Below, in pieces: positions 40,342-42,440 of a stretch of DNA of 64,000 bases. Origin of the DNA: a virus. Location: positions 1-64,000 of the IMG/VR virus record IMGVR_UViG_3300050821_002231, one strand, 5' to 3'. A program made the position numbers and the translations under genes. Positions within the stretch are counted from its first letter, which is position 1, and each line of letters opens with the position of its first letter. Under the pieces are notes generated by a model, which saw nothing but the letters and a program-made list of their open reading frames with translations, was not told where the DNA came from and searched no databases.

Positions 40342-40370
40342 TTGACATCTCTATCGTGATTCACTAGTAT
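40342..40370 (+). promoter_or_regulatory. Promoter of the guide-array/tas operon with ATTCACTAGTA box
   Basis: TTGACA-17-TAGTAT. Confidence 0.82.
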
Positions 40371-40398
40371 TCCTCTTGTGAGTGCAAGCGCAACAAGA

Positions 40399-40450
40399 GT
40401 GCGGTCGGCCAATGCGCTCGTGAAATCCACGCAAAGCCTGCCGACCGCAC
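40399..40450 (+). ncRNA. TIGR-like stem-loop guide unit 1
   Basis: gtgcggtcgg-CCA-atgcgctcg-TGAAATCCA-cgcaaagcc-TG-ccgaccgcac (perfect 10-bp stem). Confidence 0.85.
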
Positions 40451-40471
40451 AGAGTTCTGAAGGAAAAACGA

Positions 40472-41020
40472 ATGAGTAAGACGGAATACGCAGCAGCGGC
40501 CTATGAAAAGTGGGCCGCTTGGAGAGAGTCAGGAAAAGAGCCGTCGCACGATAGGGCGATGAAGATCGTCCAGCGCGAATTAGGGAAAACGAATGGCTTG
40601 GGCGTTGAATATGCTGTTCCATGCGACGATGGCAGACCCGATGACCGCCTCTCATTCATCGTCTGGGATTTGACCGAGAACGGACGCGGAGCACTCGACT
40701 ACGACAAGCAAGACGGCTTCATCAAGAATCTGTTGGAGCAAGCCCGCATGATCGTAAGTGGAGTTTATGCGCGTGACTCAGTAAAGATCGGCGGGCGATG
40801 GAGCAGTTACCCGAGAACGATGCAAACCCCAAATCGCGGCAGAGTGAGGATTACGGATACGACCGCAGAGGAGCGGGAGATGGAGGCGGAGCGCATGATC
40901 CGCGTTGCGAAAGGAATGATTCTGCGATGGAAGGGTGTCGCTGGAATTGACTGGAAATTTATCCGTTCTGTGCTTTTGCGGTTGGCTCGCGAAGTCCGGA
41001 AGGAATGGAAGATAGCTTGA
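40472..41020 (+). CDS. Hypothetical protein embedded in the guide-RNA array
   Basis: AAGGA RBS; 182 aa; flanked on both sides by array units. Confidence 0.75.
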   Translation: MSKTEYAAAAYEKWAAWRESGKEPSHDRAMKIVQRELGKTNGLGVEYAVPCDDGRPDDRLSFIVWDLTENGRGALDYDKQDGFIKNLLEQARMIVSGVYARDSVKIGGRWSSYPRTMQTPNRGRVRITDTTAEEREMEAERMIRVAKGMILRWKGVAGIDWKFIRSVLLRLAREVRKEWKIA

Positions 41021-41022
41021 AA

Positions 41023-41292
41023 GGTTCGGCCACGCATGATGTGAAAACCACGGGAAATCTGCTGAACCAAGGGAGGGCGGTCCACACCAAAGGTGAGAAA
41101 CCACCTTTACCGTGACCGCCCTCAAGATAACAGTTTCGTCGCCGGTGAATAAGTGTAAACCATTAGTGTGCTGCGGCGACAAGGTTGGTGCGGACCATCC
41201 GCGGAGTGTAATCCAAAGTCCACTTGTCCGCACCGACCAAAGAACTTAGTCGGGCCAGGCTGCCATTGAAAACCACGATCATCATGCCCGAC
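41023..41292 (+). ncRNA. TIGR-like stem-loop array, five units upstream of tas
   Basis: Units 41023-41068, 41073-41123, 41136-41179, 41183-41238, 41249-41292; each is stem-CCA(CCG once)-N9-TG..CCA-N9-TG-stem. Confidence 0.9.
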
Positions 41293-41312
41293 AAGAGAAA
41301 GAAGGAACGAAG

Positions 41313-42302
41313 ATGCTAACGCTACATCGGAAGTACAACGGAGTCGCTAAGGAACCTGTGTTCTATGTCGCAGACAACGGCAAAGCAAAAGAAGTGAAAG
41401 GTGCCAAGGCGCGAAGTTGGCTGGCGAAACTTGGAAAGAAGGTGCGACTACTTTCGACTTCCGCGCATTCGAGTGACGCCACGCTGCTGCAATTGGCAGA
41501 GCAAGGCGTGACGATCTTTACTGCCCACTGGCACAACACGGGCATAGACAAAGGCATGGAGCCGAAAGAAATTGCTCTGGCATTTTCGCGGCTGGAAGAT
41601 TCCGTCCTGCGTCCTTATGTCCCGCGGCCTGACTTGTCGCGATTGCGCGGATTGGTTACGGTTCGGAATGCAGTATTGGAATATCGAAAAGGAGCTGCTA
41701 GTCAGATAGGCTCTGCCATCCGGTCGCTAGGGGTTTCCATAGACCGGCTTCCCTCTTTTGTCGCGTTAGAGCAAGAGGAACTTGATGCCGACAGTTCGCC
41801 CATTGAGGCCAAGTGCGCCCGCGAGTTGACGGCGGAAGCAAAGAAAATCCAAGAGTGCAAAACGTTCAATCGCGTCTTCGGAATGAAAAACGGCTGGATT
41901 GTCGCGGCACAATTCGTCTCGGCGATTGGAGATATCAGCCGCTTCCCGAATGTTGCAGCCTTTTGGCATTATCTGGGGCAGCATGTAGTGAACGGCAAAG
42001 CGCCGAAGCGTGCCAGGGGCGCGGCGAACGATTGGAATCCTGGCGCACGATGCACGCTTTGGAAAACGATTGACGCTGGCCTTAAGAATAACGTGCCATT
42101 GATACGCGCCATGTACGAGGATTACAAGGCAGAAGAACTCGCGGCACATGACGTGAAGTGCCCAAACTGCGAAACGAAAGTGGGACATTGCGGCGCACGT
42201 GCACGGCGACGTGTGACAAAGGAACTTCTAAAACAGTATTACGTCGCAGCGGGAGGCACTGGTAAAAAGATGCCAGCCAGCGCCTTCTTGGTTGCGGCAT
42301 AG
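41313..42302 (+). CDS. Tas-like protein: degenerate RuvC-like N-terminus, coiled coil, IS110/Nop-type RNA-binding domain
   Basis: G....AA.....IGDISRFP...AFW.YLG, W(N)P..R, Y..YK, H..ARARR...K.LL; lacks IS110 DEDD and catalytic Ser; flanked by guide arrays. Confidence 0.82.
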   Translation: MLTLHRKYNGVAKEPVFYVADNGKAKEVKGAKARSWLAKLGKKVRLLSTSAHSSDATLLQLAEQGVTIFTAHWHNTGIDKGMEPKEIALAFSRLEDSVLRPYVPRPDLSRLRGLVTVRNAVLEYRKGAASQIGSAIRSLGVSIDRLPSFVALEQEELDADSSPIEAKCARELTAEAKKIQECKTFNRVFGMKNGWIVAAQFVSAIGDISRFPNVAAFWHYLGQHVVNGKAPKRARGAANDWNPGARCTLWKTIDAGLKNNVPLIRAMYEDYKAEELAAHDVKCPNCETKVGHCGARARRRVTKELLKQYYVAAGGTGKKMPASAFLVAA

Positions 42303-42440
42303 ATTCCGCCATAAGGCCCTTCGAAGACCATGCGAAGACTGCGGAATGTCTGCCAATCAAGATGTGAAGCCCATCGACCTTCTGCGTATTAAGGGTCGGC
42401 CCATTCGCTGACTGAAAACCAAAAGAGCAGTGGCCGACCC
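42303..42440 (+). ncRNA. TIGR-like array, three units downstream of tas
   Basis: 42303-42347, about 42348-42390 (weak stem), 42393-42440 (gggtcggc-CCA-ttcgctgac-TGAAAACCA-aaagagcag-TG-gccgaccc). Confidence 0.85.

What the first reader, a model, noticed from the sequence alone, without database searches (positions are those of the whole stretch)
40342..42440. Phage RNA-guided system: nine dual-spacer stem-loop guide units around an IS110/Nop-domain protein (TIGR-Tas-like)
Seen: nine non-coding units share one layout but not their sequence: a self-complementary stem (6-12 bp, different in every unit; weak in unit 8), CCA, 9-nt variable A, TGNAANCCA-like loop repeat (10 nt in two units), 9-nt variable B, TG, then the closing stem strand. 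Spacer pairs A/B: atgcgctcg/cgcaaagcc (40399), cgcatgatg/cgggaaatc (41023), caccaaagg/cctttaccg (41073), gtgaataag/ttagtgtgc (41136), tccgcggag/aagtccact (41183), ggctgccat/cgatcatca (41249), taaggccct/tgcgaagac (42303), atcaagatg/tcgaccttc (about 42350), ttcgctgac/aaagagcag (42393). They lie in one operon from promoter 40342, around ORF 41313-42302, which has the IS110 C-terminal/Nop-like signature. Known: TIGR-Tas systems pair Nop-domain proteins (related to IS110 and box C/D snoRNP Nop5) with arrays of two 9-nt spacers bounded by box C/D-like motifs, and the two spacers read opposite DNA strands. Inference: this is a stem-loop-type TIGR locus that CRISPR or repeat finders would miss, because only about 14 nt per unit are conserved.
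Basis: partly seen in the sequence, partly recalled or inferred. Interest (0 to 1): 0.97.

Follow-up and report, generated by a model that had tools for sequence, protein, structure and literature searches.

The report
Phage stem-loop TIGR-Tas guide array

Summary
Nine units with the layout stem-CCA-N9-UG(A-rich)CCA-N9-UG-stem lie on the + strand around ORF 41313-42302, and nowhere else in the complete 102,896-bp phage genome. Seven units are canonical. Unit 7 has a deviant loop and unit 8 has almost no stem.

The ORF is a TasR-type protein. Its model matches TIGR-TasR 9MTY over the full length (Z 20.4). It has a RuvC-like N-terminus, a coiled coil and a Nop C-terminal domain. The conserved acidic RuvC residues are missing, so it is probably a DNA binder or repressor rather than a cutter.

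Relatives carry the same units with different spacers. Two phages about 88% identical keep stems, boxes and loops at 93-97% identity but spacers at only 33%. A soil relative of this phage has unit 4's spacers rewritten.

This matches the stem-loop TIGR arrays of Faure 2025 and Xu 2026, so it is a new member of a known kind.

Beyond those papers:
- ORF 40472-41020, a family without annotation, lies beside or inside the array in eight loci, down to 25% TasR identity.
- No target was found in the phage itself or in IMG/VR above chance.

The same scan's earlier notes cover only this same stretch.

The parts
40342..40370 (+). sigma-70-like promoter candidate (TTGACA, 17 nt, TAGTAT) upstream of unit 1
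   Evidence: 10 of 12 matches. One such site is also what shuffles give, so it is only a candidate.
40399..40450 (+). tigRNA unit 1: 10-bp stem, CCA, spacer A ATGCGCTCG, loop TGAAATCCA, spacer B CGCAAAGCC, TG
   Evidence: Fold -29.6 kcal/mol, z -5.1. Covariance model 47.3 bits.
40472..41020 (+). Conserved array-embedded gene (182 aa, pI 9.6) of unknown function; candidate TIGR accessory protein
   Evidence: Relatives lie beside tas in L014, L015, L016, L001, L002, L029 and L018. The family has 72 representatives. No Pfam, NCBIfam, PHROG, PDB or fold match.
41023..41068 (+). tigRNA unit 2: 7-bp stem, spacers CGCATGATG / CGGGAAATC
   Evidence: 42.7 bits.
41073..41123 (+). tigRNA unit 3: 9-bp stem, 10-nt loop TGAGAAACCA, spacers CACCAAAGG / CCTTTACCG
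   Evidence: z -6.3. 36 bits.
41136..41179 (+). tigRNA unit 4: 6-bp stem, box C is CCG, spacers GTGAATAAG / TTAGTGTGC
   Evidence: 31 bits. In soil run X2 the box is CCA and spacer A differs at 6 of 9 positions.
41183..41238 (+). tigRNA unit 5: 12-bp stem, spacers TCCGCGGAG / AAGTCCACT
   Evidence: z -5.4. 37 bits.
41249..41292 (+). tigRNA unit 6: 6-bp stem, spacers GGCTGCCAT / CGATCATCA
   Evidence: 40.7 bits. In X2 the stretch 41218-41302 is replaced by 84 other letters.
41313..42302 (+). tas gene: TasR-type protein of 329 aa. RuvC-like fold at 1-99 without conserved acidic residues, coiled coil at about 106-190, Nop C-terminal domain at about 194-313, disordered tail at 321-329
   Evidence: Single copy in the genome.
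42303..42347 (+). tigRNA unit 7 (deviant): 6-bp stem that starts right after the tas stop codon, 10-nt loop TCGAAGACCA, spacers TAAGGCCCT / TGCGAAGAC
   Evidence: 11 bits local and 26.2 bits global. The loop's box D G is missing.
42351..42386 (+). tigRNA unit 8 (degenerate): about 2-bp stem, loop TGAAGCCCA, spacers ATCAAGATG / TCGACCTTC
   Evidence: 1 mismatch. 26.6 bits. The fold prefers pairing with the 3' arm of unit 7.
42393..42440 (+). tigRNA unit 9: 8-bp stem, spacers TTCGCTGAC / AAAGAGCAG
   Evidence: z -4.3. 42.4 bits.

Best explanation
This is a phage-encoded stem-loop TIGR-Tas system. Shown: nine dual-spacer units flank a TasR-type gene on one strand, stems covary, boxes and loops are fixed, and spacers are hypervariable between relatives. 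Inferred from the published systems: the region is transcribed rightwards, possibly from 40342, and cut into RNAs of about 45-60 nt. Each RNA binds a TasR dimer. One protomer holds the CCA/UG pair at the stem base, and the other holds the UG-AAAA-CCA loop. Spacers A and B each pair with 9 nt on opposite strands of one contiguous 18-bp site, written 5'-A + revcomp(B)-3'. Because the acidic RuvC residues are not conserved in this clade, the complex most likely binds without cutting. It would act as an RNA-guided repressor or blocker of host or rival mobile-element DNA, as shown for the dead-RuvC TasRs PateTasR and CsTasR. The conserved 182-aa protein encoded inside the array is probably a partner, but its role is unknown.
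For: Units. Stem covariation: 95% of cells paired against 60% in shuffles and 31-47% in slid controls; covariation score 0.87 against 0.19. Protein: 9MTY TaTasR at E 1e-14, and 2.7e-28 with the family profile. Foldseek top hit 9MTY at E 4e-11. VIA Z 20.4 over 275 residues, IS621/ISCro4 Z about 15, TasH Z 14-15 on the Nop part, Nop5 Z 6-7, RuvC/YqgF Z about 6 on residues 1-99. NCBIfam TIGR_Tas_endo E 9e-25. No invariant D/E in residues 1-100; H5, T49 and H74 are invariant or nearly so. Relatives: 55 model hits in 10 loci, all on the tas strand. Distant relatives L004 and L005 have classical 36-nt dual-repeat arrays. Spacer turnover: L001 against L002 gives spacers 33%, stems 93%, boxes 97%, loops 97% identity, and soil run X2 rewrites unit 4's spacers. 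Published layout, box names and repressor function: PMC12045711 sections 8-9 and bioRxiv 10.64898/2026.09.09.750476. Target geometry: 3' overhangs and the strand numbering in PMC13421893 section 21.
Against: There is no direct evidence of transcription, processing or binding. The only RNA hint is one 151-nt metatranscriptome contig identical to 41722-41872, and it could be DNA carry-over. No natural target was found. Loss of nuclease activity is inferred from missing conserved acidic residues and an approximate structural register (9MTY D11 falls near H5); no residue-level superposition or assay was done. D/E107 is conserved in 20 of 20 relatives, D/E21 in 18 and D55 in 16. The NCBIfam score of 87.9 is below the curated cut-off of 100. 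The CUU processing motif reported for stem-loop tigRNAs is not evident here. Units 7 and 8 may not be functional.
Confidence: 0.87

Rival explanations
1. It is the same TIGR-Tas system, but the TasR is an active nuclease that cuts rival phage, plasmid or host DNA, using a non-canonical active site or the embedded partner protein.
For: The full RuvC-like fold is kept. H5, T49, W73 and H74 are conserved in the pocket region, and D/E107 is in 20 of 20 relatives. An unknown conserved partner gene is present.
Against: No invariant acidic residue lies in residues 1-100. The two stem-loop TasRs studied so far are both catalytically dead and act as repressors. The partner has no nuclease-like match.
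Confidence: 0.08
2. It is an IS110-family insertion sequence, and the stem-loops are bridge-RNA-like guides for its own transposition.
For: There is a marginal Pfam Transposase_20 hit (21.2 bits against a 21.3 cut-off). The structure resembles the IS621 and ISCro4 recombinases at Z about 15.
Against: NCBIfam IS110 scores 19.8 bits against a cut-off of 140. DEDD is not conserved. There are nine independent units instead of one two-loop bridge RNA. The gene is single copy. The locus is syntenic in related phages with only the spacers changing. TasR matches clearly better than IS110 proteins (Z 20.4 against 15).
Confidence: 0.01
3. The units guide RNA modification or RNA binding, like box C/D sRNAs with Nop5, rather than DNA targeting.
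For: The protein has a Nop-type domain that resembles Nop5 at Z 6-7. Dual guides are bounded by short boxes.
Against: The boxes are CCA and UG, not RUGAUGA and CUGA. The protein is far closer to the DNA-targeting TasR and TasH. TasR showed no activity on RNA substrates in PMC12045711. Fibrillarin and L7Ae genes were not looked for.
Confidence: 0.02
4. The stem-loops are ordinary intergenic palindromes such as terminators, RNase sites or REP-like elements, and they sit near a degenerate transposase gene by chance.
For: They lie between genes. An AAG or A-rich flank follows many stems.
Against: The internal motifs and the 9-nt spacing are exact in nine units here and in 55 units in relatives, always on the tas strand. 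No T tracts follow the stems. Spacers alone diverge between near-identical phages. The phage's other dispersed palindrome (note e1-5984331) is a different sequence.
Confidence: 0.01

Closest known systems
Stem-loop TIGR arrays with catalytically dead TasR (PateTasR 329 aa, CsTasR; Xu et al. 2026, bioRxiv 10.64898/2026.09.09.750476)
   Same: RuvC-like domain, coiled coil and Nop architecture. Same length as PateTasR (329 aa). Canonical RuvC acidic residues missing. Units of about 50 nt with variable stems, a mostly 9-nt loop and two 9-nt spacers. Units lie upstream and downstream of tas. The C-terminal tail after the last helix is short.
   Different: Box C is CCA here, where PateTasR uses CUU. 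The residues quoted for PateTasR do not match (for example K10 there, G10 here). The CUU processing motif is not evident; AAG follows many stems instead. The host is a soil phage rather than a CPR bacterium. A conserved extra gene sits inside the array.
Peromyscus leucopus gut TasA stem-loop array (Faure et al. 2025, PMC12045711, Fig. 7; Guan et al. 2026)
   Same: Palindromic variable stems in place of edge repeats. Box C and box D flank two spacers. Sub-arrays are separated by several hundred nt.
   Different: That effector is a TasA with no N-terminal nuclease-like domain. Here a RuvC-like domain is present.
Dual-repeat TIGR-TasR (TaTasR, PDB 9MTY)
   Same: It is the best sequence and structure match. 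It has the same CCA and UG boxes, an A-rich tetraloop-like loop repeat and 9+9 nt spacers.
   Different: TaTasR has four conserved acidic RuvC residues and cuts DNA. Its array has fixed 36-nt units with conserved edge repeats, where this locus has unit-specific stems.
IS110-family bridge-RNA recombinases (IS621, ISCro4)
   Same: Shared RuvC-like plus Nop/Tnp fold (Z about 15). Guide RNA loops pair with both DNA strands.
   Different: No DEDD, far below the family cut-off, many single-target units instead of one target-plus-donor bridge RNA, and not a mobile element.
Archaeal box C/D sRNP (Nop5-fibrillarin-L7Ae)
   Same: Nop domain with a coiled-coil dimer. Bipartite guides are anchored by short box motifs.
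   Different: Different boxes, no k-turn motifs, a DNA target rather than an RNA target is expected, and no methyltransferase partner is seen nearby.

Membership tests
TIGR-Tas, stem-loop type | Effector with a Nop-type domain (coiled-coil dimerisation helices plus RNA-binding C-terminal domain) | tested here: met
   9MTY TaTasR at E 1e-14, and 2.7e-28 with the profile. VIA Z 20.4, rmsd 3.9, 275 residues aligned. TasH Z 14-15 over residues 105-320. Model pLDDT 87.5.
TIGR-Tas, stem-loop type | Units with two spacers of 8-12 nt, each preceded by box C (CCA) and followed by box D (UG) | tested here: met
   Nine units with 9+9 nt spacers. In 40 aligned units the C of box C, the loop CCA and the final TG are invariant.
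TIGR-Tas, stem-loop type | Variable but consistently palindromic flanks that form a stem in place of edge repeats | tested here: met
   Stems of 6-12 bp in 8 of 9 units. 95% of cells paired, 8 of 9 stem pairs show double changes, and no shuffle of 500 reaches the score. Caveat: the units from relatives were chosen with at least 5 pairs.
TIGR-Tas, stem-loop type | Units cluster beside tas on its strand, in relatives too | tested here: met
   All nine genome-wide hits lie within 1 kb of tas. There are 55 hits in 10 related loci, all on the + strand.
TIGR-Tas, stem-loop type | Spacers vary between units and between related loci while the scaffold is kept | tested here: met
   L001 against L002: spacers 33% identical, stems, boxes and loops 93-97%. 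X2 relative. No shared spacer pairs between loci except one L001/L002 unit.
TIGR-Tas, stem-loop type | Array transcribed and processed into unit-sized RNAs bound by Tas | not testable with these tools
   The only hint is one metatranscriptome contig inside tas. No small-RNA data are available.
TIGR-Tas, stem-loop type | RNA-guided binding of an 18-bp DNA site by tandem spacers | not testable with these tools
   No natural target was found in the phage genome or in IMG/VR above control level.
NCBIfam NF052498 TIGR_Tas_endo (equivalog: RNA-guided endonuclease) | Score at or above the curated cut-off of 100 bits | tested here: not met
   87.9 bits, E 9.3e-25, covering profile positions 4-213 of 215. 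It is a divergent relative and not an equivalog of the endonuclease.
Catalytically active TasR | Conserved acidic RuvC residues (D11 and three others in TaTasR) | tested here: not met
   No invariant D/E in residues 1-100 of 20 clade members. H5, T49 and H74 occupy the ends of strands 1, 4 and 5. The register to 9MTY is approximate: model 1-319 on chain 7-300.
IS110 family transposase | Family model score, DEDD catalytic residues, and a single bridge RNA within a mobile element | tested here: not met
   NF033542 scores 19.8 bits against a cut-off of 140. No DEDD. Nine units and a single gene copy.
Box C/D sRNP | RUGAUGA and CUGA boxes forming k-turns, with Nop5-fibrillarin-L7Ae partners | tested here: not met
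   The boxes are CCA and UG. There is no Rfam match in 40000-42800. The partner proteins were not searched for.

The most novel reading that the evidence does not exclude
This TasR clade may be a distinct two-protein TIGR subtype. The conserved, unannotated 160-230-aa basic protein encoded inside the array would be a working partner, for example in tigRNA maturation, spacer renewal or the downstream effect. Both spacers of a unit would be replaced together, in place, inside a fixed stem and loop scaffold. That would make these phages a natural system for studying how TIGR spacers are acquired.
Probability: 0.3. Interest if true: 0.75.

Novelty: new member of a known kind. Interest (0 to 1): 0.45.

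Why it matters
The locus itself adds one more stem-loop TIGR-Tas system to thousands already catalogued. Its value lies in the context.

- It sits in a complete phage genome with terminal repeats. The absence of self-targets is therefore a real negative, and it points to host or rival DNA as the target.
- Near-identical relatives show that spacers, and almost only spacers, are rewritten, usually both spacers of a unit together. This bears on the open question of how TIGR arrays gain spacers, which both main papers name as unsolved.
- A gene family with no annotation travels with this TasR clade inside the array. The papers read here report no TIGR partner other than a ParB-like gene.
- The effector is compact (329 aa) and probably nuclease-dead. 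It uses CCA/UG boxes and short stems, which makes it a candidate programmable DNA binder.

Tried and rejected
The contigs of the closest relatives could therefore not be read: Tas P0002 at 72% identity and accessory P0024, both listing 31,391 bp as their longest contig and so possibly on one contig.
- Genome contigs held no relative of the Tas clade.
- Host hunt: the phage's TnpB-like transposase matched only Micrarchaeota MAGs at 32-55% identity. There are no tRNA genes. The host stays unknown, so host genomes could not be searched for targets.
- Self-targets: no 18-mer in either geometry has 2 or fewer mismatches in the 102,896-bp genome. The single 3-mismatch hit in the correct geometry is at chance level.
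- IMG/VR exact scans for units 1, 2 and 5 in the correct geometry gave one hit each, in unrelated contigs of 57-72% GC. Wrong-geometry controls gave 8 hits (6 independent) and 6 hits (one lineage). The hits are therefore background.
- blastn of 38500-46400 against GenBank phages: no match.
- Rfam: no match.
- Accessory protein: Pfam, PHROGs and NCBIfam gave nothing. The PDB profile search gave only E>0.6. The ESM Atlas gave no usable hit. Fold search reached Z<=7 on helices only, with a model of pLDDT 67.5.
- CUU motif at the stem base (Xu 2026): seen in only 5 of 45 units.
- A unit-like string inside the tas 3' end (42259-42290) has no stem and CTG for box C. It is not counted as a unit.
- The more distant relatives fetched were TasA- or TasH-like, judged by eye from their translated ORFs. 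No active TasR was available for a residue-level alignment of the RuvC site.
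Full report
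**1. Observation**

The stretch 40399-42440 holds nine units on the + strand. The common layout is 5' stem arm, CCA, 9 nt, TG + 4-5 mostly A + CCA, 9 nt, TG, 3' stem arm.

- A pattern with no stem requirement gave 9 hits in the window against 0.93 expected. Seven of them are in the cluster. Units 3 and 7 have 10-nt loops and escape that pattern.
- With stem extension, 8 units were found in the whole genome, all in the cluster, with 6-12 bp stems.
- Most units fold as predicted. The z-scores for units 1, 3, 5 and 9 are -4.3 to -6.3.
- Tandem Repeats Finder sees nothing here, and Rfam has no match.
- Seven units are canonical. Unit 7 has a 10-nt loop that starts TC rather than TG. Unit 8 has almost no stem. 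Unit 4 has CCG for box C.

**2. The protein**

ORF 41313-42302 (329 aa) has only a marginal Pfam Transposase_20 hit.

- Its best PDB sequence match is TIGR-TasR 9MTY (E 1e-14), followed by TasH. With a profile of 20 relatives the values are E 2.7e-28 and 2.9e-15.
- The AlphaFold model has pLDDT 87.5 and pTM 0.84. It matches 9MTY over its full length: Foldseek E 4e-11 and VIA Z 20.4 with 275 residues aligned.
- The next matches are the IS621 and ISCro4 recombinases (Z about 15), TasH on residues 105-320 (Z 14-15), Nop5 (Z 6-7), and RuvC/YqgF on residues 1-99 (Z about 6).
- NCBIfam TIGR_Tas_endo gives E 9e-25 at 87.9 bits, under the cut-off of 100. The IS110 model gives 19.8 bits against 140.

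The protein is therefore a divergent TasR-type Tas protein and not an IS110 transposase.

No acidic residue is invariant in residues 1-100 of the clade. H5, T49 and H74 sit at the ends of strands 1, 4 and 5, where RuvC enzymes carry D, E and D. The structural register puts TaTasR D11 near H5. I infer a nuclease-dead RuvC domain, like those of PateTasR and CsTasR. This is inference and has not been assayed.

**3. Context**

The window is the first 64 kb of a 102,896-bp virus record. The record has direct terminal repeats and is rated 100% complete.

- It encodes a large terminase at 58047-59696, a ParB-like protein at 30015-31712 and a TnpB-like transposase at 22912-24042.
- The covariance model built from 40 units finds exactly the nine units in the whole genome.
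- tas and the 182-aa gene are single copy.
- A promoter-like site lies at 40342-40370, and all neighbouring genes read rightwards. Co-transcription is plausible but unproven.

**4. Relatives**

- IMG/VR and JGI metagenomes hold relatives of the protein.
- Loci L001, L002, L010-L012, L015, L016, L018, L029 and L032 carry 55 model hits, all on the tas strand. Many of these units were not used to build the model.
- Distant relatives L004 and L005 have classical dual-repeat arrays with an 18-nt half period.
- In 40 aligned units the stem columns are 95% paired, against 60% in shuffles and 31-47% in slid controls. Eight of nine stem pairs show double changes. The units from relatives were picked with at least 5 pairs, so the outer three pairs and the window's own units are the unbiased part of this test.

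**5. Spacers evolve apart from the scaffold**

L001 and L002 are about 88% identical across the array. Their stems are 93% identical, boxes 97%, loops 97% and the embedded ORF 88%, but their spacers are only 33% identical. Units change both spacers together or neither; one unit keeps both spacers at 8 of 9.

In this phage's own lineage, a contig from another soil study (X2) is at least 95% identical in the flanks. Yet in unit 4 it restores box C from CCG to CCA (41144) and changes six of the nine positions of spacer A (41146-41151). It also alters spacer B, and it replaces 41218-41302 with 84 other letters.

No spacer pairs are shared between loci otherwise.

**6. Targets**

The target geometry follows from two published points. 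TasR leaves 3' overhangs (PMC12045711), and the strand numbering of the TasH structure is given in PMC13421893, section 21. The site reads 5'-A + revcomp(B)-3'.

- No such 18-mer, nor the other geometry, occurs in the phage genome with 2 or fewer mismatches.
- Exact scans of IMG/VR for units 1, 2 and 5 gave one hit each in unrelated contigs. Wrong-geometry controls gave as many or more.
- The host could not be identified.
- Targets remain unknown. Xu et al. report the same for the field as a whole.

**7. The embedded gene**

ORF 40472-41020 (182 aa, pI 9.6) lies between unit 1 and units 2-6.

- Relatives lie beside tas, on the same strand, in L014, L015, L016, L001, L002, L029 and L018. L018's TasR is only 25% identical to this one. 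The L001/L002 relatives are supported by hhalign at 90% probability.
- The gene is upstream of tas here and downstream in the other loci.
- All seven loci that have enough flanking DNA carry it. The short contigs are uninformative.
- The family has 72 representatives at 50% clustering.
- It has no Pfam, PHROG, NCBIfam, PDB or fold match.
- The TIGR papers read here mention only a ParB-like partner of some TasA loci.

Conserved synteny among related phages could explain part of this association. Its persistence at 25% TasR identity and its changing position argue for a functional link. The function is unknown.

**8. Comparison and verdict**

The layout equals the stem-loop TIGR arrays of Faure et al. 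[quoted passage not shown] It also fits the dead-RuvC stem-loop TasRs of Xu et al. 2026, which act as RNA-guided repressors.

Differences:
- Box C is CCA rather than the CUU of PateTasR.
- There is no evident CUU processing motif. AAG follows 5 of 8 window stems and 12 of 45 stems overall.
- The array contains the embedded gene.

Its interest is moderate, resting on the spacer-turnover pattern, the complete phage context and the candidate partner gene.

Noticed in passing
window 40472-41020; L014:4364-5053, L016:1330-1929, L015:2001-2507, L001:4508-4990: An unannotated basic protein family (invariant W17, P24, W65, D66, N70, Y77, Q90, A91) is always encoded beside or inside the tigRNA array of this TasR clade. 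It is upstream of tas here and downstream in the other loci.
   Followed up: yes
L001:3900-5300 against L002:3860-5200: Two IMG/VR phages about 88% identical keep stems, boxes and loops at 93-97% identity but spacers at 33%. Both spacers of a unit change together, and one unit keeps both.
   Followed up: yes
window 41144-41171 and 41218-41302 (soil run X2): A contig from a different soil study, close to identical in the flanks, restores box C of unit 4 from CCG to CCA, rewrites its spacers, and has 84 other letters in place of the unit 5 3' arm and unit 6.
   Followed up: partly
window 41722-41872: A soil metatranscriptome run holds a 151-nt contig identical to part of tas. This is a weak hint of expression, and DNA carry-over is not excluded.
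   Followed up: no
window 42147-42191 (Tas residues 279-293): The clade has an insertion with H279, C/H283, C286, H292 and C293 (H..KCP.C....GHC) that TaTasR lacks. It may be a zinc site between the last two helices of the Nop domain.
   Followed up: no
window 42291-42302 and relatives P0001-P0020: Of 20 Tas relatives, 11 end in Ala-Ala and 4 in Ala-Ala-Asp, and the L001 accessory protein ends in AAA. The tail is disordered in the model. It could be a degron-like tail or a constraint from the tigRNA unit that starts at the stop codon.
   Followed up: no
window 42259-42290: The tas 3' end contains a unit-like string (CTG-N9-TGCCAGCCA-N9-TG) with no stem. It is 13 of 18 identical in its spacers to a unit in L032. 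It may be a decayed intragenic unit or a chance match.
   Followed up: partly
window 42309-42341: In unit 7 the heptamer CGAAGAC occurs both in the loop and in spacer B, which suggests a local duplication. The unit's 5' stem starts at the base after the tas stop codon.
   Followed up: no
window 30015-31712: A 565-aa ParB-like protein lies about 10 kb upstream of the TIGR locus. Faure et al. reported ParB-like genes in operons with some tasA genes, but here the gene is not adjacent.
   Followed up: no
window 22912-24042: A 376-aa transposase (phrog_506, E 9e-87) sits inside the phage. Its nearest genome matches are Micrarchaeota MAGs at 32-55% identity.
   Followed up: partly
3' flanks of stems, e.g. 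window 41069-41071, 41124-41126, 41293-41295: AAG or an A-rich run follows the 3' stem arm in 5 of 8 window units and 12 of 45 units overall. It may be a processing signal that takes the place of the published CUU motif.
   Followed up: partly
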